Of a stretch of DNA of 61,376 nt, positions 3,559-59,899 are shown piece after piece (positions within the stretch are counted from its first letter, which is position 1; every line of letters starts with the position of its first letter). The notes under the pieces are model-generated. The model was not told the DNA's origin. It saw nothing but the letters and a program-made list of their open reading frames with translations, and did no database searches. The stretch is from positions 1 to 61,376 of the IMG/VR virus record IMGVR_UViG_3300001847_000619. The stretch is one strand, 5' to 3'. Made by a program: the position numbers and the translations under genes. Source of the DNA: a virus. Its lineage: Duplodnaviria; Caudoviricetes.

Positions 3559-4128
3559 TTTAGATTCTACTATTTTAAGTTTTGCTCTATAATCTATAAG
3601 AAGTTGTTTTAGTTCTTCCCTGCTATATTTATATATTTCTCTGCTTTCTTCTCTTAATTGTTCGGGAAGTCCTGGGTGTTCTTCATTTAATCTTTTGGTA
3701 TACTCTTCCATATTGCCATGCATATTGCAATTACAATTAGGGCATTGTGGTTTCCCATTTCTAGAATCCCACCTAAGTAATGTATCTGAACGCTTAATAT
3801 AATGACCACATTGTAGGTACTTCCAATGGTCTTTCTTCCCACAAGTATAACATTCTGCAATCCCTTTATTATTAGATTCTCTTATTCTTATGTAACGGGA
3901 AAAAGTAAAATCTAAATCATTAATCAATGATTGCCTTTCAGATAATCCATCATCACAAATAAGCCTCCTTAGTTTTGTTTTTAAGTGTGCCTTTTCTGTA
4001 TATTGCTTTGCTTTTTGTTGATTTCTACATGGGATACAATATAAGTTTTTCCCGTTCTTAACAACATTAACATCTCTATCTCCACATTCACTACAATTTC
4101 CAAATTTACTTTTAGGTATCATATTCAT
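3550..4128 (-). CDS. ninG: NinG/Rap-family recombination nuclease with N-terminal zinc finger
   Basis: FSRYIRIRE, CYTCG, CGHY, LRWD..N...QCPNCN motifs. Confidence 0.85.
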   Translation of the reverse strand: MNMIPKSKFGNCSECGDRDVNVVKNGKNLYCIPCRNQQKAKQYTEKAHLKTKLRRLICDDGLSERQSLINDLDFTFSRYIRIRESNNKGIAECYTCGKKDHWKYLQCGHYIKRSDTLLRWDSRNGKPQCPNCNCNMHGNMEEYTKRLNEEHPGLPEQLREESREIYKYSREELKQLLIDYRAKLKIVESKLL

Positions 4129-4541: not shown

Positions 4542-4787
4542 ATGGTAGATGAATTTTATTTAATTGAAGATGTTTTAAATTCTAAAACAAAAGAGCCTTA
4601 TGCAGTCAAGGGGGAAAAAGTAAAATTCATAGCAGACCATGATAATTGTTATATAGTCGAATCTGAAAAAAATATTCGATTTGGTGTCGCTTTATCTTTA
4701 CTTTCAGAAGAAAAAATTGAAAAAGAAATAATTTTAAAAACACAAAACACTAAAAAAAATGACAAAAAAAGAACTACTAAAAGATAA
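4542..4787 (+). CDS. hypothetical protein (SH3-like beta pattern)
   Basis: 81-aa ORF. Confidence 0.6.
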   Translation: MVDEFYLIEDVLNSKTKEPYAVKGEKVKFIADHDNCYIVESEKNIRFGVALSLLSEEKIEKEIILKTQNTKKNDKKRTTKR

Positions 4788-4971
4788 GGTATTAGAACTA
4801 CATTATCAAGGGTTATCAAATAAAGAAATATGCAATAGGTTAGAAATGAGCTCTACAACTGTTTGTGTTTTAATAAAATATTACACAAAAGGCAATGATG
4901 TTAAAGAAGGATGTTTTAATGTAGATGAGCATGAATGTTGGATTTTCCCTGCTACAAAAGAAAAATTTTGA
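4759..4971 (+). CDS. HTH DNA-binding protein
   Basis: VLELHYQGLSNKEICNRLEMSSTTV. Confidence 0.75.
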   Translation: MTKKELLKDKVLELHYQGLSNKEICNRLEMSSTTVCVLIKYYTKGNDVKEGCFNVDEHECWIFPATKEKF

Positions 4972-48686: not shown

Positions 48687-48875
48687 ATGAACCACACACC
48701 TGATTTTGGAAATTTTTACTTATCAGTAATAAGTGCCTTTTTTGCGGCAATTTCATTTACTACTGTTCAACCTGTATTACAATTGTTAGCCACTTTAGTA
48801 GCTATATTTTCGGGAATATATTCCATACATATTAATTATAAAAAATCAAAACGTAAAAAAAATGAAAAGTTATAA
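48687..48875 (+). CDS. holin-like small membrane protein
   Basis: hydrophobic segments, basic C-terminus, lysis context. Confidence 0.6.
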   Translation: MNHTPDFGNFYLSVISAFFAAISFTTVQPVLQLLATLVAIFSGIYSIHINYKKSKRKKNEKL

Positions 48876-49044
48876 AACAACTTTAGTAGGAGCTGGTCTT
48901 GCTGTATTAATGGCATTGCAGCCAATTATGGAAGGTACTGGATACCATTTAAACAAAGAAACAATTGGTAAATTGCTATTCGCTGGAATGTTAGCTGCAT
49001 TCGGGTATTTAGTTAAAGACCATGATGTTTCTGGTAAACCATAA
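48862..49044 (+). CDS. holin-like 2-TM protein
   Basis: MKSYKTTLVG...GYLVKD, two TMs. Confidence 0.65.
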   Translation: MKSYKTTLVGAGLAVLMALQPIMEGTGYHLNKETIGKLLFAGMLAAFGYLVKDHDVSGKP

Positions 49045-49108
49045 TAATAAAAAGGAGCTTGTAGAAACAAGCTCCGCCTATTAACCTATGTTTATGAAAA
49101 AAAAGTTA
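49042..49108 (-). ncRNA. candidate small RNA 1 (promoter-seed-terminator cassette)
   Basis: minus-strand TTTG-N19-TATATTTG at 49142-49112; hairpin 49054-49075 with TTTCTA core and U tail. Confidence 0.6.
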
Positions 49109-49134
49109 ATACAAATATACAAAACATTTAGGTT

Positions 49135-50382: not shown

Positions 50383-51381
50383 ATGACAAAGTCAGACGTA
50401 GCTAAAAAGTATAGGGCTAAATATCCCGACTTCCCTACATTAAAATTAGCTAGAATCATGTACAAAGAAAACAATCTTTTATTTACTACAATAGAAGATG
50501 CTAGAAGTACATTAAGATATATAGAAGGTAAGATTGGAGAAAAAAATAGAGTAAGTAAAGTAAAAGAAAGCGAGTTTTTTAAAGAAGAAGAAAGACCTAA
50601 GAATCCATATAATTTACCACAAAGTTATAAGCAAGATAGAACTCCATTCGTATTGCCAATTGGATGCAATAATATTCTTTTAATATCAGACCTACATATT
50701 CCCTACCATGATATAGATGCAATAACAATAGCCTTAGATTATGGCAAAGAACATAATGTAAATACTATATTTATTAATGGAGATTTGATAGATAATGCTC
50801 AAGTTAGTAGATTTGAAAAAGACCTTAAAAAACGTAGTGTAAGGGAAGAATTTGATGCGACAAAGAAATTCTTAGTAGAGTTAAGGAAAGCATTTCCTAA
50901 TGCAGAAATATATTGGTTAAAAGGGAATCATTGTGCCCGCTGGGAGAAATTCTTAGCACAAAAAGTTACAGAAATTTGGGATGACCCTTATTTCCATTTA
51001 GAAGAAAGATTGAGATTGCATGAAGAAAGAATAAAAATACTTGATGATTCAACTCTTGTTAAGGCAGGGAAGTTATCTATTACGCATGGGCATCACATAT
51101 TTAAGGGTATATTTTCCCCTGTATCTCCAGCAAGGGGAGCTTACATGAAAGCAAAGCAAAGTGTTATAGTTGGGCATTTGCATAGAACTTCTCAAAATTC
51201 AGAAATGGATTTAGATGGTAATGTAGTTAGTTGTTGGTCTCAAGGTTGTTTGTGTGAGCTTAGAACAAACTATTCTCCTATAGCAAGTAATTCGCAACAT
51301 GGATTTGCTCATATTCTTGTTCAACCTAATGGAGATTACAATGTACATAATTATCAGATAATCAAGGGGAAGATACATTAA
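50383..51381 (+). CDS. calcineurin-like metallophosphoesterase
   Basis: SDLH, NGDLID, GNH, HGH, GHLH. Confidence 0.9.
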   Translation: MTKSDVAKKYRAKYPDFPTLKLARIMYKENNLLFTTIEDARSTLRYIEGKIGEKNRVSKVKESEFFKEEERPKNPYNLPQSYKQDRTPFVLPIGCNNILLISDLHIPYHDIDAITIALDYGKEHNVNTIFINGDLIDNAQVSRFEKDLKKRSVREEFDATKKFLVELRKAFPNAEIYWLKGNHCARWEKFLAQKVTEIWDDPYFHLEERLRLHEERIKILDDSTLVKAGKLSITHGHHIFKGIFSPVSPARGAYMKAKQSVIVGHLHRTSQNSEMDLDGNVVSCWSQGCLCELRTNYSPIASNSQHGFAHILVQPNGDYNVHNYQIIKGKIH

Positions 51382-51438
51382 TAATAAAGCCCTATAGAAA
51401 TAGGGCTCGCTTATTATCAAAATTAACTAACTATGTCA
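51378..51438 (-). ncRNA. candidate small RNA 2 (promoter-seed-terminator cassette)
   Basis: minus-strand TTTG-N19-TATATTTG at 51472-51442; hairpin 51388-51407 with TTTCTA core, U-rich tail. Confidence 0.6.
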
Positions 51439-51460
51439 ATGCAAATATAACCAATCAATT

Positions 51461-52454: not shown

Positions 52455-52778
52455 TTAAGTTTTTTCATGTTTGATAGTTTTTAGTATTTCTTTTTTATAT
52501 TCTCGATGCTCTCTTATTGCTTTAGTATGCTGTTCTTTTTTGTAATATATTTTACTCCCTCCTCGTTCTTTTCTTCTTTCTAAATTGCTTTTATGTGAAT
52601 CTGGATTTATAATAAATTGAATAAGTCGTTTACTTACATTAAACATCTTTGCTATTTTGTTTTTACCTAAGCCACGACTTCCCCAATATATAACCATTTC
52701 TTTTTGACAAGGAAGTAATTTGCTACTACGTTTTAAGAATGGGCAATCTATTGCTATATTATCAGTTATTCTCGGCAT
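52455..52778 (-). CDS. HTH DNA-binding protein
   Basis: GLGKNKIAKMFNVSKRLIQFI. Confidence 0.8.
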   Translation of the reverse strand: MPRITDNIAIDCPFLKRSSKLLPCQKEMVIYWGSRGLGKNKIAKMFNVSKRLIQFIINPDSHKSNLERRKERGGSKIYYKKEQHTKAIREHREYKKEILKTIKHEKT

Positions 52779-52971
52779 CTTGTTGCTCTTTTAATTTATC
52801 TACTTCGGGAAGTATTACCACTCCTTCAAATATTCCCATTCTTTTTGCGGATTCTATTATAGATTTTCCCATATTAAAATAACTATCATCAGATTGACAA
52901 GCATGGATAAGTTCTCCAATGAATACAATTTTCTCAAAGTGTCCTAATTTTTCGTAGTTTTTGCAGAGCAT
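52762..52971 (-). CDS. hypothetical protein
   Basis: 69 aa; ACACTAAAAA leader. Confidence 0.7.
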   Translation of the reverse strand: MLCKNYEKLGHFEKIVFIGELIHACQSDDSYFNMGKSIIESAKRMGIFEGVVILPEVDKLKEQQDAENN

Positions 52972-52990
52972 AGTTTTTAATTTTTAGTGT

Positions 52991-53429: not shown

Positions 53430-53660
53430 TTATATAATTTCAATGTTAGTGTATATTGTTTTTAATTCATTTAGCAAGGGGAAATAATACTCTGGCTCTA
53501 CTTCCCTTGACTCCTTAATATAATCCTCTGAACATAATGAATGTTGACCTATTGTAGAATAACAGCTCATAAATTTGCCAAAAATGTTTTTAACTATTTC
53601 AGTAGGGAAAACAGCAAATAGGTCAGCGTTTTCTTCGTTGTATAAAAATTTAACTTTCAT
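53430..53660 (-). CDS. hypothetical phage protein (AVFP...CY...GQHS)
   Basis: 76-aa ORF. Confidence 0.8.
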   Translation of the reverse strand: MKVKFLYNEENADLFAVFPTEIVKNIFGKFMSCYSTIGQHSLCSEDYIKESREVEPEYYFPLLNELKTIYTNIEII

Positions 53661-54254: not shown

Positions 54255-54503
54255 TTAATTGTTTATATGGTTTATAATTTTTTTTATGGTTCGGGAAATT
54301 CTTACGTAGTTTTTACTTTCAATATCATCAATTAAACTGCTGTAAGCAAAATAATTGTCGCTTATAACTTCCCCTTGATTATTAAGCATAATTACACTCG
54401 CATTTTCATCACATTCTTTGTAATTAACGTAATAATGAAAGTCATTTGTTTGTAAGGCATGATAATAAGTGCCGAAGTAATGGCGAAATAAAGATTTTTT
54501 CAT
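54255..54503 (-). CDS. hypothetical early protein
   Basis: start moved to MKKSLFRH, which follows a promoter and ACACTAAAAA leader. Confidence 0.7.
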   Translation of the reverse strand: MKKSLFRHYFGTYYHALQTNDFHYYVNYKECDENASVIMLNNQGEVISDNYFAYSSLIDDIESKNYVRISRTIKKIINHINN

Positions 54504-54526
54504 GTTATTATTTTTTAGTGTGTGAA

Positions 54527-54919: not shown

Positions 54920-55087
54920 TTAATTAAGTAGCTCTAATTCATCAATAAAAATATAAGTATTATTAATTTTAATTACTGACTTTTCCTCTAATATCCTCAC
55001 AACTTCATTAAATTGATTAACTTTTAGGCAAGTATTAATAATATACTCCGTTGCCTGTTCAATGTTTTTAAAGGTTTTAATGTTCAT
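54920..55087 (-). CDS. 55-aa hypothetical early protein
   Basis: manual translation MNIKTFKNIEQATEYII...; CACTAAAAA leader. Confidence 0.6.
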   Translation of the reverse strand: MNIKTFKNIEQATEYIINTCLKVNQFNEVVRILEEKSVIKINNTYIFIDELELLN

Positions 55088-55110
55088 GATAGTTTGTTTT
55101 TAGTGGTTAA

Positions 55111-55338
55111 TTAATTATTACATTTTATTAAAAATTTATATTTTTTATCTTGCATTATTATAAAATTTTCAATTTTCCCCTTGCTATTAAATAAGTCAAA
55201 TATTTTGCATTTATTACCTGTAAATATGTTTGTATTTTCTTTTATTTCTATATTGCTATAAAAATAATCGTTAACAACTTTATTAATTCCATGTATTGTT
55301 GGCGAAGTTGCAAGTAAATTAAAGTTTGTATTTTTCAT
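55111..55338 (-). CDS. hypothetical early protein
   Basis: 75 aa; ACACTAAAAAA leader. Confidence 0.7.
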   Translation of the reverse strand: MKNTNFNLLATSPTIHGINKVVNDYFYSNIEIKENTNIFTGNKCKIFDLFNSKGKIENFIIMQDKKYKFLIKCNN

Positions 55339-55364
55339 GATATTATTTTTTAGTGTTTAATTAA

Positions 55365-57150: not shown

Positions 57151-57255
57151 TTAATTACAAAAAACAAAGTGAATAAAAAACATAATTTTAATAAGTAAGT
57201 AAATAAACAAGGATAAAACAGGAATGAGGCAAAAAAGGAATTTCAATTTTTTCAT
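57151..57255 (-). CDS. 34-aa hydrophobic membrane peptide, first gene of leftward operon
   Basis: manual translation MKKLKFLFCLIPVLSLFIYLLIKIMFFIHFVFCN; leader ACACTAAAAAAACTATCATG. Confidence 0.55.
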   Translation of the reverse strand: MKKLKFLFCLIPVLSLFIYLLIKIMFFIHFVFCN

Positions 57256-57284
57256 GATAGTTTTTTTAGTGTGTTGATAAAAAA

Positions 57285-57316
57285 CAAAGATAAGAGTAAA
57301 TACTTTTACTTTCAAT
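57285..57316 (-). promoter_or_regulatory. early leftward promoter
   Basis: TATCTTTG at 57292-57285 with ATTG 20 nt upstream. Confidence 0.65.
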
Positions 57317-57349
57317 CAATGTAAACAACTTTTAACAAAATTTTAACAA

Positions 57350-57800
57350 TTAGCTAAATAGTTTAGTAAAGCTAAAAAATTTAGCATTTCTCTTTTTCCC
57401 CTTGTTCCATACAATAACCCCCCACCCAATAAAACAAAATAAAACAAACCAAACAAACCAACGCCAAAAACCCCCATTTTCCCCTTGCTAAATACCTTAG
57501 TAATGCTTACTAATATCCTTAGCATACAACACAATACCCCCGTAACGAATTTATAGCCAATTTAACGCCCTTTATTCGCCTTTCCTTTGTCTTCCCCTTG
57601 CCCAACAAATTAAACCCCATAAAATCGCCTTAAATTAAGCCGTTAAAAATTCAATCCCATATTTAAAAACCAAAAACCGAAACCGAAACCCAAAAACAAA
57701 CTCCCGCCCCTTTGCCGTTTACAAATTCCCAAACCGAGAGCCGCCCCCCTATTCCTAGCGTACAATGTCCCCCCCTCTAAGAGTTGTATAGGTTTTTTAT
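57350..57800. other. non-coding, strongly C/A-skewed divergence region; candidate genome terminus / pac region
   Basis: G-poor plus strand, C-runs, AAAC and AAACCG repeats, no credible ORF. Confidence 0.45.
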
Positions 57801-57849
57801 TTAAAAATACGTTTTGAAAAATGAACGGGAAAAACTCGTAGCTTTACAA

Positions 57850-57907
57850 TCTCATGGATAGTTTTTTTTAGTGTACCCCTGGTGTTTCTACATTGGGGGT
57901 TTTCTTG
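57850..57907 (+). ncRNA. candidate small RNA 3, antisense to early-gene leaders
   Basis: seed CATGGATAGTTTTTTTTAGTGT then ACCCCTGGTG-TTTCTA-CATTGGGGGT-TTTCTT terminator; TAGCTTTA -7-like element at 57839. Confidence 0.65.
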
Positions 57908-57919
57908 TTAAAAAAAATA

Positions 57920-57951
57920 TTTGGATAATACAATCTACTTTTGTAGATTTG
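57920..57951 (+). promoter_or_regulatory. promoter of recombination operon
   Basis: TTTG-N20-TAGATTTG. Confidence 0.65.
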
Positions 57952-57972
57952 TGGGAACTAAAAAAATCCATT

Positions 57973-58656
57973 ATGACACTAAAAGAACAAATGCAAGATG
58001 CAGAAGCTATCTTTCAAAAGATAGACGCCTTTGTAAAAGAAGGTAAAATCAGCCAAGCTTACGAAGTTATTCAATCAGAAAATCCTCCTAATTCATGGCT
58101 TATTGAATTAGACTCTCGCTTAAAAAAAGGAGAAAAATACAAGTCTATTAAATTAGAATTATTAGAGGCGGCAGTAAGAAGAATATTTGGTGTTTGCGAA
58201 CTACAAACAATAGAAAATCCAGTTATTCATAGTGACAAATCTGGTACTATTTCTGTCACAATTATTGCAAAAATCGAAACAAAATATCTTGATGGAAAAC
58301 CCTATCCACTTGTGCTTTCAGGCATAGCAACAGAGATTGTAGATAGTGCAAAACTTCTTCCCCTTGCAACACCAAAGGCATCAAGTATGGCAGTTAAAAA
58401 CGCTATTAAACAATTAGGTAGATTATTTGGAAAGTATCTTAACAACGAATCAGAAGAACTGGAACTTCCCATACAATCAGATGACAATATGCTAACTCCA
58501 GAAGAAGAACTAAAAGCAATAACAGATGGCATAATAACTGCAAAAGCTATTAAAGATTTAAAATCATGGAGGCATCTTGTGTATCAAAAAAAGAATACAG
58601 AACTACAAGATTTATACGAATCAAAACTAAGACAACTACAAGTTGTAGTCAACTAA
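57973..58656 (+). CDS. Sak/Rad52-like single-strand annealing protein
   Basis: PKASSMAVKNAIKQLGRLFG..LN; start moved to MTLKEQ; next to exonuclease. Confidence 0.7.
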   Translation: MTLKEQMQDAEAIFQKIDAFVKEGKISQAYEVIQSENPPNSWLIELDSRLKKGEKYKSIKLELLEAAVRRIFGVCELQTIENPVIHSDKSGTISVTIIAKIETKYLDGKPYPLVLSGIATEIVDSAKLLPLATPKASSMAVKNAIKQLGRLFGKYLNNESEELELPIQSDDNMLTPEEELKAITDGIITAKAIKDLKSWRHLVYQKKNTELQDLYESKLRQLQVVVN

Positions 58657-59024: not shown

Positions 59025-59047
59025 TTAACCACTAAAAAATTAACAAC

Positions 59048-59899
59048 ATGAGTAACGTAGACTGGTCAAAAGCATTATTTAGATGTTCTTGCATAGGCAA
59101 GATTATGACAGAAGGCAAAGGTTCTGTAGTAACAGAAAAACAATTACAAGAATTAGAACGACTGCAAGGACTTCCCAAACGCACAGAAAAACAAGAAGCA
59201 ACAATAGCAGAGATAATAGCAAAGATGAATGCTCCTGCTAAACTAAGCGATACTTGCATAAGCTATTTAAAAGAAGTTTATGTTTATTACAAGTATGGAA
59301 AAGAACCATTAGGAGGTGCAGAAAGAAGCATATACACAAAGAAAGGAAAGCTTGTAGAAGAAGAATCTATAATGATGCTTAGCCGAATAGACGGAATGGC
59401 TTATTCGAAAAATGAACAAAGATTTACAAATGATTATCTAACTGGAGAACCTGACATTATAGTAACGCAAGACGATATTATGTCAAAGATTATAGACATT
59501 AAGTCTAGCTACGATTTTGCCACCTTATTGTCAAATTATGGGTCTTCCCTTAATCCATTATATTATGCCCAAGTAAACGGTTATATGGCTCTTACAGGAG
59601 CTAAAGAAGCAGAAGTAGCATATTGCCTAGTATCTATGCCTCAAGAGATAGTAAACGGAGAAAGAAGAAGGATATTTTACGCCATGAATCCATTAACTGA
59701 AGAAGACCCTCTATACAAAAAGGCAATAGAAAGAATGGAGAACAATTACACCTTTGATGAAATTCCAATTACAGAAAGAGTGCTAAGATTTCCCGTTCCT
59801 AGAAACGAAGAATTTATCCAAAAGGTATACAAGAGAATAGAAGAATGCAGAGAATGGCTAAAGCAATTCGATGAAGTACATACCAATTTATACAAATAA
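59048..59899 (+). CDS. YqaJ/lambda-exonuclease-like PD-(D/E)XK nuclease
   Basis: FRCS.IG.IM, KG..VE, LTGEPDI, IIDIKSS, YY.QV.GYM.LTG. Confidence 0.88.
   Translation: MSNVDWSKALFRCSCIGKIMTEGKGSVVTEKQLQELERLQGLPKRTEKQEATIAEIIAKMNAPAKLSDTCISYLKEVYVYYKYGKEPLGGAERSIYTKKGKLVEEESIMMLSRIDGMAYSKNEQRFTNDYLTGEPDIIVTQDDIMSKIIDIKSSYDFATLLSNYGSSLNPLYYAQVNGYMALTGAKEAEVAYCLVSMPQEIVNGERRRIFYAMNPLTEEDPLYKKAIERMENNYTFDEIPITERVLRFPVPRNEEFIQKVYKRIEECREWLKQFDEVHTNLYK

What the first reader, a model, noticed from the sequence alone, without database searches (positions are those of the whole stretch)
57839..57907. Candidate trans-acting sRNA antisense to the shared leader of a class of phage genes
Seen: a ~55-nt plus-strand unit with a -7-like TAGCTTTA, the seed CTCATGGATAGTTTTTTTTAGTGT and a terminator ACCCCTGGTG-TTTCTA-CATTGGGGGT-TTTC. 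The seed is the reverse complement of the start region ACACTAAAAA..(CTA)TCATG shared by many genes. Leftward genes read on the plus strand: 57253 CATGATAGTTTTTTTAGTGT, 55336 CATGATATTATTTTTTAGTGT, 55085 CATGATAGTTTGTTTTTAGTG, 54501 CATGTTATTATTTTTTAGTGT, 52969 CATAGTTTTTAATTTTTAGTGT, and weaker at 53658. Rightward genes also fit: Sak (ACTAAAAAAATCCAT, 57957), exonuclease (CACTAAAAAAT, 59030) and the HTH gene at 4759 (ACACTAAAAAAAATG). Inference: one sRNA could silence translation of the early/recombination gene class by covering leader and AUG, an RNA-based switch that would explain why this leader is conserved.
Basis: partly seen in the sequence, partly recalled or inferred. Interest (0 to 1): 0.88.

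Follow-up and report, generated by a model that had tools for sequence, protein, structure and literature searches.

The report
Phage small RNA matching early-gene leaders
A freshwater Bacteroidota phage carries a tiny promoter-to-terminator unit whose single-stranded part is the mirror image of the start regions of its own early genes, and related phages keep the same unit while changing its sequence in step with their own gene starts, which points to an RNA brake on early-gene translation.

Summary
At 57839-57910 (+) lie a Bacteroidota -7 box (TAGCTTTA), a 28-nt U-rich stretch and a 10-bp hairpin plus U-tract. All listed leader copies sit at the stated coordinates.

The unit is conserved. 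A covariance model finds it next to the Rad52-fold 'Sak' gene in almost every related contig with enough upstream DNA.
- All 10 stem pairs show two-sided changes.
- 35 of 36 anti-leader units carry TAnnTTT[GA].
- 14 of these 36 lie on the strand opposite Sak yet keep the order box, seed, hairpin, U-run.
- The seed changes with each phage's own Sak start region. Own pairs share 10.5 nt of perfect complement on average, foreign pairs 7.0, with 0 of 200,000 permutations reaching this.

In the window, 14 of 94 start regions pair at -14 kcal/mol or better, against 1.8 for shuffled seeds. No conserved opposite-strand ORF exists.

Best reading: a roughly 57-nt trans-acting antisense RNA that occludes early-gene start regions. 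Expression and repression are untested, because no RNA runs were listed. It is a new variant of phage antisense control such as c4, sar and OOP.

The parts
57824..57834 (.). Conserved AACGGGAAAAA block just upstream of the -7 box. It is an inverted copy of the TTTTCCCCTT(G) motif repeated at 57393, 57477 and 57592. Possible binding site for a regulator of the sRNA promoter (inference).
   Evidence: Inverted repeats I7 and I13 and direct repeats D3 and D6. The block is conserved in L004 and L003 in alignment A4.
57839..57846 (+). -7 box TAGCTTTA of the proposed sRNA promoter. The predicted start is near 57851 (+/-2), because the box occupies -12..-5.
   Evidence: Sequence. Box position from passages of PMC9723704. 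A box 18-48 nt upstream was found for 15 of 17 hairpins that were located without using the box; the chance rate per hairpin is 0.07. 35 of 36 class A units have TAnnTTT[GA] (the model was trained with the box, so this count leans towards it).
57847..57874 (+). Seed: a 28-nt U-rich single-stranded stretch that mirrors a leader plus AUG. CAT at 57853-57855 is the anti-start codon and TTTTTTTTAGTGT is the anti-leader.
   Evidence: Fold with free 5' end. Target scan against shuffles. Seed co-varies with the Sak start region across relatives.
57875..57900 (+). Terminator hairpin: 10 pairs, loop UUUCUA at 57885-57890.
   Evidence: Covariation on A3: 10 of 10 pairs changed on both sides, 91.6% of cells paired against 59.8% in shuffles, 0 of 500 shuffles reaching.
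57900..57909 (+). U-tract TTTTCTTGTT. The expected 3' end gives an RNA of about 57 nt.
   Evidence: A T-run follows the hairpin on the sRNA strand in the related units.
57936..57943 (+). Separate -7 box TACTTTTG for the rightward (Sak) operon. The predicted start near 57948 gives a 5'UTR of about 25 nt.
   Evidence: The block CTACTTTTGTAGATTTG is conserved in L004 and L005.
57957..57975 (+). Target: leader ACTAAAAAAATCCATT plus the ATG of the Rad52-fold (Sak-like) gene 57973-58656.
   Evidence: Inverted repeat I4, 57858-57872 against 57957-57971, 87% complementary. dG -12.1. Rad52 fold: Foldseek E 2e-7.
57253..57292 (-). Best target: -7 box TATCTTTG (57292-57285), a 5'UTR of about 25 nt with ACACTAAAAAAACTATC, and the ATG (57255) of a 34-aa hydrophobic ORF that heads the leftward small-gene cluster.
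   Evidence: (dG -20.7, a near-continuous duplex over leader and AUG).
59030..59050 (+). Target: leader CACTAAAAAATTAACAAC plus the ATG of the exonuclease gene 59048-59899.
   Evidence: dG -17.6. phrog_5715 exonuclease, E 7e-40.
55085..55105 (-). Target start region of the 55-aa gene 54920-55087.
   Evidence: dG -20.6.
55336..55356 (-). Target start region of the 75-aa gene 55111-55338.
   Evidence: dG -17.5.
54501..54521 (-). Target start region of the 82-aa gene 54255-54503. It has its own TACCTTTG box upstream.
   Evidence: dG -15.9. Upstream sequence.
52969..52990 (-). Target start region of the 69-aa gene 52762-52971.
   Evidence: dG -15.7.
4747..4761 (+). Target start region of the 70-aa HTH (GerE/LuxR-type) gene 4759-4971.
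   Evidence: 13-nt perfect match, dG -14.0. Pfam GerE E 1e-5.

Best explanation
Positions 57839-57910 are an autonomous small-RNA gene of a Bacteroidota phage.

How it is made (inferred). Host sigma-A RNA polymerase starts about 5 nt after the -7 box, near 57851. It stops at the hairpin and U-tract near 57907, giving an RNA of about 57 nt. The first ~24 nt are unpaired and the rest forms the terminator stem-loop.

How it acts (inferred). The unpaired part is the antisense image of 'A/C-rich leader + AUG'. It can pair with the translation start regions of:
- the gene heading the leftward small-gene cluster (57255);
- several further leftward genes;
- the Rad52-fold recombinase gene (57973);
- the exonuclease gene (59048);
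- an HTH gene (4759).
Pairing over -20..+5 would keep ribosomes off these SD-less mRNAs and probably expose them to decay, damping or shutting off the early and recombination gene class. Because the sRNA uses the same kind of promoter as its targets, I picture a delayed brake or threshold rather than an on/off switch.

What is shown: the anatomy, its conservation, stem covariation, the seed changing together with the start regions, and excess complementarity.

What is inferred: that the RNA is made, that it pairs in vivo, and that the outcome is repression.
For: 1. Anatomy.

2. Conservation next to the same gene in divergent phages (protein identity 36-77%).
- Model R1 gives 41 hits in 24 sources and 83 hits in 70 metagenome sources.
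- 61 of the 69 loci tabulated with a Sak match (68 metagenome loci plus the window) carry a hit. Three of the 8 without a hit have under 100 nt upstream.
- Weaker units appear in L057, L058 and L070 with filters off, and those of L058 and L070 show 9- and 12-nt matches to their own Sak leader.
- There is also a hit on a phage-like contig of a Bacteroidetes MAG.

3. Stem covariation: 10 of 10 pairs changed on both sides; 91.6% of cells paired against 59.8%; 0 of 500 shuffles reach this; slid controls give at most 57%.

4. Promoter.
- A box lies 18-48 nt upstream of 15 of 17 hairpins found by stem and loop alone. The chance rate is 0.07 per hairpin, though the 17 are related sequences.
- 35 of 36 class A units have TAnnTTT[GA].

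5. Inversion test: 22 class A units lie on the Sak strand and 14 on the opposite strand. All keep the order box, seed, hairpin, U-run.

6. Seed changing together with the start regions.
- Across 17 viral contigs, own-pair dG averages -19.3 against -11.8 foreign. The longest perfect complement averages 11.9 against 7.1 nt. 0 of 100,000 permutations reach this.
- Across 22 start-region clusters from metagenomes the means are 10.5 against 7.0 nt. 15 of 22 clusters reach 10 nt or more, against 13% of foreign pairs. 0 of 200,000 permutations reach this.
- By my reading there are roughly 12 different seed/leader word types.

7. Many targets in the window.
- 14 of 94 start regions pair at dG <= -14, against 1.8 +/- 1.4 for shuffles.
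- 12 of these 14 lie in the 41 start regions of the early-side blocks, a grouping I drew after seeing the map (Fisher p = 0.0008).

8. Replication in a second, 59-kb relative: 14 of 77 start regions at dG <= -16 against 3.0 (maximum 9) in 100 shuffles. Sak ranks 3 and the exonuclease ranks 5.

9. Precedent in the phylum: GibS of B. thetaiotaomicron represses mRNAs by pairing a single-stranded 5' seed with their SD-less start regions (passages of PMC7366714).
Against: - No expression data: no RNA run was listed, so the transcript is unproven.
- The box ends in A rather than the consensus G, and no -33 TTTG lies at the right spacing in the window (my reading).
- The U-tract is interrupted (UUUUCUUGUU).
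- Within the window's own clade the seed does not single out its own Sak start region. The window seed pairs better with L003's (-21.7) than with its own (-12.1).
- Over the 22 clusters the diagonal is the strict row-best in only 5-6 cases, because related clades tie.
- Both permutation tests ignore relatedness between contigs.
- Model R1 was trained with the box and hairpin, so hit-based counts lean towards them.
- A/C-rich leaders may be conserved for translation efficiency alone.
- 7 of 22 clusters show less than 10 nt of perfect match. Some of these captured only the class B unit, and some have bulged matches.
- Two further units of the same build in the window (U2, U3) show no trans-target excess. 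The build alone therefore does not imply an anti-leader function.
Confidence: 0.6

Rival explanations
1. Promoter-proximal terminated transcript, or attenuator, of one of the two divergent early operons, in the manner of lambda 6S or StxS. The box and hairpin form a regulated stop in front of an operon. The short RNA is a by-product, and the anti-leader stretch acts in cis on read-through transcripts or not at all.
For: - In the window the unit lies in tandem 63 nt upstream of the Sak gene.
- Relatives carry a second unit (class B, 23 distinct sequences) 19-45 nt before the Sak gene with no seed complementarity. That unit looks like a true attenuator.
- In the inverted clades the class A unit points towards the leftward genes, so in both orientations it heads an operon.
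- The abstract of PMC7547250, seen in the listing, describes a short RNA made by early termination at a phage late promoter.
Against: - A separate conserved -7 box stands between the terminator and the Sak gene in the window, L004 and L005. By my reading of the start regions printed, the same holds in L006, L010, L022, L009 and L053. Sak transcription therefore does not need read-through.
- The unit can sit 560 or 1351 nt from the Sak gene (L079, L080).
- An attenuator has no need for a leader that mirrors start regions and changes with them.
- The two readings are not exclusive: a terminated by-product can still act in trans.
Confidence: 0.15
2. A relic or recombination linker. The segment is an inverted copy of a gene-start cassette, the boundary sequence shared by the small early genes. 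It was left by module shuffling, and the neighbouring box and hairpin serve other purposes.
For: - The seed's complement reads like a full start region, with leader, ATG and a few codons (MRL-stop here; MKTTA, MKTQS and similar in relatives).
- The leader is repeated at many gene junctions in the leftward cluster.
- The phage encodes a recombination module.
Against: - A neutral relic would not persist across relatives with 36-77% protein identity while tracking each phage's current start-region words.
- It would not keep box, hairpin and U-run in one order through an inversion.
- Similarity to the best target (57255) is confined to about 22 nt, with no flanking homology.
- 9 of 30 class A unit variants have no ATG at all on the opposite strand.
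Confidence: 0.08
3. A DNA-level signal. The ACACTAAAAA word is an operator or a phage-specific promoter element bound by a protein such as the HTH protein of 4759. The copy at 57874 would be one more binding site in the divergent control region.
For: - In at least three promoter-proximal cases the word sits about +7 to +18 after a -7 box (57272, 57957 and 54521). That is a typical operator position.
- The control region holds other palindromes and iterons.
Against: - Most copies lie inside the polycistronic leftward cluster with no -7 box nearby, always 8-12 nt before an ATG.
- In clade B relatives the matched word lies inside the coding sequence just after the ATG.
- This reading does not explain the box, hairpin and U-run around the inverted copy.
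Confidence: 0.05
4. The RNA is real but aims at host mRNAs (host takeover). The likeness to phage leaders would reflect shared Bacteroidota start-region composition.
For: U-rich seeds pair readily with A-rich start regions in general. Shuffled seeds still hit 1.8 of 94 at dG <= -14. The host genome is unknown, so host targets could not be scanned.
Against: The seed follows phage-specific words, not composition. Own pairs beat foreign pairs although all are A/C-rich.
Confidence: 0.07

Closest known systems
c4 antisense RNA of phages P1 and P7 (passages of the review PMC12197685)
   Same: - It is a phage-encoded small RNA that blocks translation of a phage gene by pairing around its ribosome-binding site.
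- Its specificity differs between related phages, which is the basis of heteroimmunity. This resembles the roughly 12 seed/leader word types seen here.
   Different: - c4 acts on one mRNA (ant). From recall, it is cut out of the same transcript as its target, with seeds presented in loops.
- The unit here has its own promoter and terminator, a linear 5' seed, and predicted targets on both divergent operons.
- It comes from a phage of SD-less Bacteroidota.
OOP RNA of lambda and sar RNA of P22 (same review)
   Same: They are short phage RNAs with their own promoter and intrinsic terminator. They are encoded in the early control and replication region and reduce expression of a phage regulator by antisense pairing.
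   Different: OOP and sar are cis-antisense: they overlap the gene they control on the opposite strand. Here no gene lies opposite the unit, and the targets are 50 nt to more than 50 kb away.
GibS, a trans-encoded sRNA of Bacteroides thetaiotaomicron (passages of PMC7366714)
   Same: - It is from the same phylum.
- It has a TAnnTTTG-type promoter context, a single-stranded extended 5' seed and a Rho-independent terminator.
- It represses by pairing with SD-less translation start regions.
   Different: GibS is chromosomal and targets metabolic mRNAs. No sequence relation was sought or seen, and Rfam gave no hit for the window. The unit here is phage-borne and aims at phage genes.
StxS / lambda 6S-type short RNA from early termination (abstract of PMC7547250, seen in the listing)
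   Same: A promoter followed within about 60 nt by a terminator in front of a phage operon, yielding a short RNA that can itself regulate.
   Different: Those RNAs arise at the late promoter under Q antitermination. Here a separate promoter serves the downstream operon, and the unit also occurs inverted.
T4 RegA translational repressor
   Same: It produces the same logic at class level: one phage factor binds the start regions of many early mRNAs and turns their translation down.
   Different: RegA is a protein. Here the factor would be an RNA reading a shared leader word.

Membership tests
Trans-acting base-pairing sRNA (generic bacterial/phage class) | Own promoter | tested here: met
   The -7 box is at 57839-57846. 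A box was found upstream of 15 of 17 hairpins located independently of the box, and in 35 of 36 class A units. This is sequence evidence only.
Trans-acting base-pairing sRNA (generic bacterial/phage class) | Intrinsic terminator defining a short transcript | tested here: met
   Covariation in 10 of 10 stem pairs. A U-run follows on the sRNA strand.
Trans-acting base-pairing sRNA (generic bacterial/phage class) | Accessible seed complementary to target mRNAs encoded elsewhere, beyond chance | tested here: met
   (against shuffles). (own against foreign start regions).
Trans-acting base-pairing sRNA (generic bacterial/phage class) | The RNA is detectably expressed | not testable with these tools
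   No RNA run was listed for this phage.
Trans-acting base-pairing sRNA (generic bacterial/phage class) | Target expression changes when the sRNA or the pairing is altered | not testable with these tools
   This needs an experiment.
Cis-antisense phage RNAs (OOP/sar type) | Overlaps its target gene on the opposite strand | tested here: not met
   The opposite strand has only MRL-stop here. In 30 class A variants the opposite-strand ORFs are 0-21 aa with no shared peptide.
P1/P7 c4-type RNA | Processed from the same transcript as its target, with target sites upstream of ant (feature recalled) | tested here: not met
   The unit has its own box and terminator. It lies on the strand opposite its conserved target in 14 of 36 class A units.
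Promoter-proximal attenuator of the downstream operon | Downstream operon depends on read-through, with no promoter between terminator and gene | tested here: not met
   A conserved TACTTTTG box lies at 57936-57943 between the terminator and the Sak gene. The feature is met for the separate class B units of relatives.
Any Rfam 15 family | Score at or above the family's gathering threshold | tested here: not met
   There were 0 hits in the whole window. In 57300-58000 the best sub-threshold hit was PyrR at 22.9 bits against a threshold of 54.
Rad52-type single-strand annealing protein (the 'Sak' label of the main target gene) | Rad52 N-terminal fold | tested here: met
   AlphaFold2 model with pLDDT 82.9. 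Foldseek against human RAD52 chains gives E 2e-7 to 2e-6 and TM 0.38-0.52. There was no Pfam, PHROG or PDB sequence hit.

The most novel reading that the evidence does not exclude
The seed and the leader form a private, co-evolving 'address code'. Each phage lineage marks its early mRNAs with its own A/C-rich leader word and carries one small RNA that reads that word.

The roughly 12 word types among close relatives would then be immunity specificities. A resident or first-arriving phage would silence the early genes of any incoming phage that shares its word, and lineages would escape by changing seed and leaders together. This would be RNA-based heteroimmunity, or superinfection exclusion, in virulent-looking Bacteroidota phages.

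In several clades the seed appears to have two parts. The part next to the hairpin matches the recombinase start region. The 5' part with the anti-AUG matches the first leftward gene. One RNA would thus couple both divergent early operons.
Probability: 0.15. Interest if true: 0.85.

Novelty: new variant of a known kind. Interest (0 to 1): 0.68.

Why it matters
- Regulatory RNAs of phages are known almost only from enterobacterial and a few Gram-positive phages. A 2025 review of phage-derived sRNAs contains no word beginning with Bacteroid or Flavobacter. My four other literature searches brought up no report of such an RNA in Bacteroidota phages among the titles and abstracts listed.
- This would be a conserved phage sRNA family in a phylum that lacks Shine-Dalgarno-based initiation and Hfq-type chaperones.
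- The family comes with a natural series of matched seed and leader variants. That series makes the pairing rules testable with simple reporters.
- It would explain how one small gene can set the level of a whole class of early genes, including the recombination pair (Rad52-fold protein and exonuclease).
- It offers a ready-made, programmable knock-down scaffold for Bacteroidota.
- If the seed variety reflects immunity specificity, it would also bear on how related phages compete in freshwater communities.

Tried and rejected
Searches and checks that gave nothing:
- Megablast and tblastn against the GenBank phage collection found no match.
- tRNA scan found none.
- Rfam gave no hit at gathering threshold and only noise at E up to 10.
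- Pfam, PHROGs and a PDB sequence profile gave nothing for the Sak-like protein. Its fold was then obtained.
- RNA evidence: no RNA holder was listed.
- Read laying on three DNA runs returned contigs only. The unit was identical in the same phage from three studies, plus one short contig of a relative. This says nothing about expression.
- No tyrosine integrase (PF00589) was found in this roughly 80%-complete record. A fragment cannot show absence, so lifestyle stays open.

Ideas considered and dropped:
- Heterologous seeds as a negative control on the window's start regions were not usable, because seed lengths differ (18-48 nt) and longer seeds score lower energies.
- The UUUCUA loop is not a phage-specific scaffold. 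R1 hits in 4 of 120 other Bacteroidota genomes are ordinary terminators or 5'UTR hairpins with the same loop next to prfA, gcvH, an H+-pyrophosphatase gene and a DUF2490 gene. Only 39 candidates per genome were scored.
- The window's two other units (49042-49119 and 51377-51449, minus strand) are not trans anti-leader RNAs: no excess over shuffles.
- The minus-strand ORF from 57855 is rejected.
- A conserved leftward promoter to the right of the hairpin was sought by eye in the window and L004, and none was found.
- The sigma-70 promoter scan is irrelevant for this phylum and was not above shuffles.

Supplements of the cited papers were not opened. Tables of Bacteroides and Flavobacterium sRNAs and terminators there might list related hairpins.
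Full report
**Setting**

The window is a 61,376-base IMG/VR virus record. It is linear, about 80% complete and 30.6% G+C.

A crude ORF map shows three blocks:
- plus-strand genes from 80 to 51996, covering replication, structure and lysis. These include DnaD-like and DnaB-like proteins, NinG and a GerE-type HTH, and an endolysin;
- a block of about 30 small minus-strand ORFs from 52091 to about 57300;
- a rightward block from 57973 holding a 227-aa protein, a PHROG exonuclease (59048) and RusA (60081).

The 227-aa protein has no Pfam, PHROG or PDB sequence hit.

The finding lies in the divergent non-coding region 57300-57972 between the two early blocks.

- The box TAGCTTTA (57839-57846), the seed, the 10-pair hairpin (57875-57900, loop TTTCTA) and the tail TTTTCTTGTT are as described.
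- In Bacteroidota the sigma-A -7 box TAnnTTTG occupies -12..-5 (passages of PMC9723704; also PMC7366714). This puts the start near 57851 and the RNA length at about 57 nt.
- The RNA folds with a free 5' stretch and a -16 kcal/mol hairpin.
- ACACTAAAAA occurs 5 times on the minus strand, all between 52990 and 57874, and once on the plus strand.

**Conservation**

With the Sak-like protein as an independent handle I fetched related contigs:
- 14 loci, then 24 loci, from viral contigs;
- 1 from genomes, a Bacteroidetes MAG;
- 74 from metagenomes.

Reading the upstream DNA of L003, L004 and L005 showed the same plus-strand order: -7 box, 20-40 nt ending in TTTTAGTGT, a hairpin whose two arms change together, a T-run, and then a second box for the Sak gene.

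A hairpin scan that used only stem and loop found 17 such hairpins. Of these, 15 had TAnnTTT[GA] 18-48 nt upstream. The chance rate in this genome is 0.07 per hairpin, although the hairpins are related, so they are not 17 independent trials.

A covariance model built from 15 units (A2, R1) gave these results:
- 41 hits in 24 sources;
- 83 hits in 70 metagenome sources;
- 61 of the 69 loci tabulated with a Sak match (68 metagenome loci plus the window) carry a hit. Three of the 8 without a hit have under 100 nt upstream. With filters off, three more (L057, L058, L070) have weaker units, and those of L058 and L070 show 9- and 12-nt matches to their own Sak leader;
- in the window it finds three units: the finding, 49042-49119 (-) and 51377-51449 (-).

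On the 41-hit alignment:
- all 10 stem pairs show changes on both sides;
- 91.6% of cells pair, against 59.8% in shuffles (0 of 500 reach this) and at most 57% when the partner column is slid.

That alignment was fitted to the model, which favours the structure. The slid control and the hand-read examples agree with it.

**The key result: the seed changes with the targets**

The stretch between box and hairpin is not conserved in sequence. In each phage it is the complement of that phage's own Sak start region.

Words read as the complement of the seed:

| Word | Contigs |
|---|---|
| ACACTAAAAAAA | window, L003, L004 |
| ACACTAAAAC | L005 group |
| AAACTAAACTA | L006 group |
| ACACTAAACTATTA | L011 group; here the match lies just after the ATG |
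| ACCTAAA..CATTAA | L010 |
| ACCTAAAACA | L022 |
| ACACTACAAAACAA | L013 and L015 |
| AAACAAACAAACAAT | L016 group |
| ACAATAACAAGA and AACAAGAAAAACGC | L027 and L029 groups |
| AATCACTAAAC | L058 and L070 |
| TATGACAA-TCAGA | L053 |

The numbers are as follows.
- For 17 viral contigs, own seed against own start region gives a mean dG of -19.3 kcal/mol and a mean longest perfect complement of 11.9 nt. Foreign pairs give -11.8 and 7.1. 0 of 100,000 permutations reach the observed sums.
- For 22 start-region clusters from metagenomes, using all units upstream of Sak in each locus, the means are 10.5 and 7.0 nt. 15 of 22 clusters reach 10 nt or more, against 13% of foreign pairs. 0 of 200,000 permutations reach this.

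The limits are as follows.
- The permutations ignore relatedness.
- Neighbouring clades tie, so the diagonal is the strict row-best in only 5-6 of 22.
- Inside the window's own clade the long A-run makes all members cross-match.

**The inversion test**

Of 65 distinct unit sequences:
- 36 have at least 8 nt of perfect complement to their own Sak start region (class A);
- 35 of these 36 have the box;
- 22 lie on the Sak strand, 45-1351 nt upstream;
- 14 lie on the opposite strand, 163-206 nt upstream.

In both orientations the order box, seed, hairpin, T-run is kept. This is what an autonomous transcription unit predicts. It is not what a leader relic or a Sak attenuator predicts.

**Many targets in the window**

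- 14 of 94 start regions pair with the seed at dG <= -14.
- 200 shuffles give 1.8 +/- 1.4 (maximum 6), the reversed seed gives 3, and gene interiors give 3 of 89.
- 9 of 94 have a perfect match of at least 10 nt, reached by 0 of 100 shuffles.
- 12 of the 14 lie in the early-side blocks. I drew that grouping after seeing the map (Fisher p = 0.0008).
- The top targets are 57255 (a 34-aa hydrophobic ORF that heads the leftward cluster behind its own TATCTTTG box; dG -20.7), 55087, the exonuclease at 59048, 55338, 54503, 52971, 55556 and 53660.
- Likeness to the 57255 start region is confined to about 22 nt. It is therefore not a recent block duplication.
- In a second, 59-kb relative (42% Sak identity), the unit's seed hits 14 of 77 start regions at dG <= -16, against 3.0 (maximum 9) in shuffles. 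The top hit is a 71-aa leftward gene, Sak ranks third and the exonuclease fifth.

Here it reads MRL-stop. Across 30 class A variants the opposite-strand ORFs are 0-21 aa with no shared peptide, and 9 variants have no ATG at all.

**What the hairpin is**

I first took the conserved UUUCUA loop for a special scaffold. R1 then found the same loop in 4 of 120 other Bacteroidota genomes. There it sits in ordinary terminators or 5'UTR hairpins beside housekeeping genes (only 39 candidates per genome were scored). The loop is therefore a host-type terminator feature, which supports reading the hairpin as a real terminator.

The window's two other units have no trans-target excess. They may be cis-antisense RNAs, or they may be nothing.

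**Mechanism**

The best-supported reading is a short RNA made by host polymerase. Its free 5' part covers leader and AUG of a class of early mRNAs and lowers their translation.

The same mechanism is documented in the phylum for GibS. According to passages of PMC7366714, pairing with SD-less start regions represses, and AT-rich sRNAs there use extended seeds.

Expression, pairing in vivo and the sign of the effect are inferences. The main rival is a promoter-proximal terminated transcript. This rival is real for a second unit type (class B) that sits 19-45 nt before the Sak gene in other clades. It fits the class A unit poorly, because a separate promoter serves Sak and because the unit can be inverted or lie far away.

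**Comparison and novelty**

The closest known systems are the phage antisense RNAs c4 (P1/P7), sar (P22) and OOP (lambda), from passages of the review PMC12197685, and GibS for the host-side mechanism.

The unit differs from them in four ways:
- it is trans-encoded with its own promoter and terminator;
- it aims at a shared leader on both divergent early operons;
- it forms a family in which seed and leaders have changed together many times;
- it belongs to phages of Bacteroidota.

For Bacteroidota phages, the review holds no mention (0 words beginning with Bacteroid or Flavobacter). My other four searches brought up no such report in the listings I saw. Rfam has no matching family. I therefore rate it a new variant of a known kind.

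**Verdict**

Confidence in the antisense-sRNA reading is 0.6. Interest is 0.68.

Noticed in passing
window 49042-49119 (-) and 51377-51449 (-): Two more units of the same build: TATATTTG box, 33-36 nt, UUUCUA-loop hairpin and T-run. They point against the flow of the plus-strand late and lysis genes, in the gaps after 48862-49044 and 50383-51381. Their seeds show no excess of trans matches to start regions. They may be cis-antisense RNAs against the late polycistronic mRNA.
   Followed up: partly
window 57325-57850: About 0.5 kb of non-coding DNA with extreme strand asymmetry (GC skew -0.56 to -0.72, C far above G on the plus strand). It contains three copies of TTTTCCCCTT(G) and one inverted copy just upstream of the sRNA box. 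Blocks such as cttccccttgcc and gcgtacaatg recur in L003-L005. It is a candidate origin or iteron region, and the 60-aa ORF at 57343-57525 inside it is doubtful.
   Followed up: partly
window 57353-57385 and 57486-57524: Operator-like palindromes of the form GCTAAAT...TTTAGC, two to three copies, sit between the leftward promoter and the C-rich region.
   Followed up: no
L013 479-550, L016 5904-5971, L027 2897-2958, L034 2901-2971 and about 20 metagenome loci: Class B unit: a promoter, a short 5' part (often ..AGCAAGCAATCGTT..), a UUUCUA-loop terminator and a T-run, standing 19-45 nt before the Sak ATG with no complementarity to it. It is probably a transcription attenuator of the recombinase operon. 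A near-identical 5' part precedes a DUF2490 gene in a Bacteroidota chromosome (L045).
   Followed up: partly
L007 about 3960-4085, L011 about 1830-1940, L072/L073/L079: In this clade the Sak ATG is abutted by a terminator-like hairpin (GCCCC...GGGGC followed by T-rich sequence). The hairpin ends a structured 5'UTR of about 95 nt. Here the anti-leader unit lies 180-1350 nt further upstream and matches the first codons rather than the leader.
   Followed up: no
L003, L013, L015 (whole contigs): These viral contigs read as inverted duplicates of themselves: every unit and gene appears twice, on opposite strands. They are likely assembly artefacts, and duplicates were not counted twice.
   Followed up: no
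window 57285-57292 (-), 57936-57943 (+), and the TACCTTTG box upstream of the 54503 start: Three consensus -7 boxes each place the ACACTAAAAA-type word at about +7 to +18 of a 5'UTR of about 25 nt. This suggests a reused promoter-plus-leader cassette. It fits the 23-nt modal 5'UTR reported for B. thetaiotaomicron.
   Followed up: partly
L005 5200-5250: Five tandem copies of a roughly 10-nt word (TGTTACG-type iterons) lie at the far edge of the same control region in a relative.
   Followed up: no
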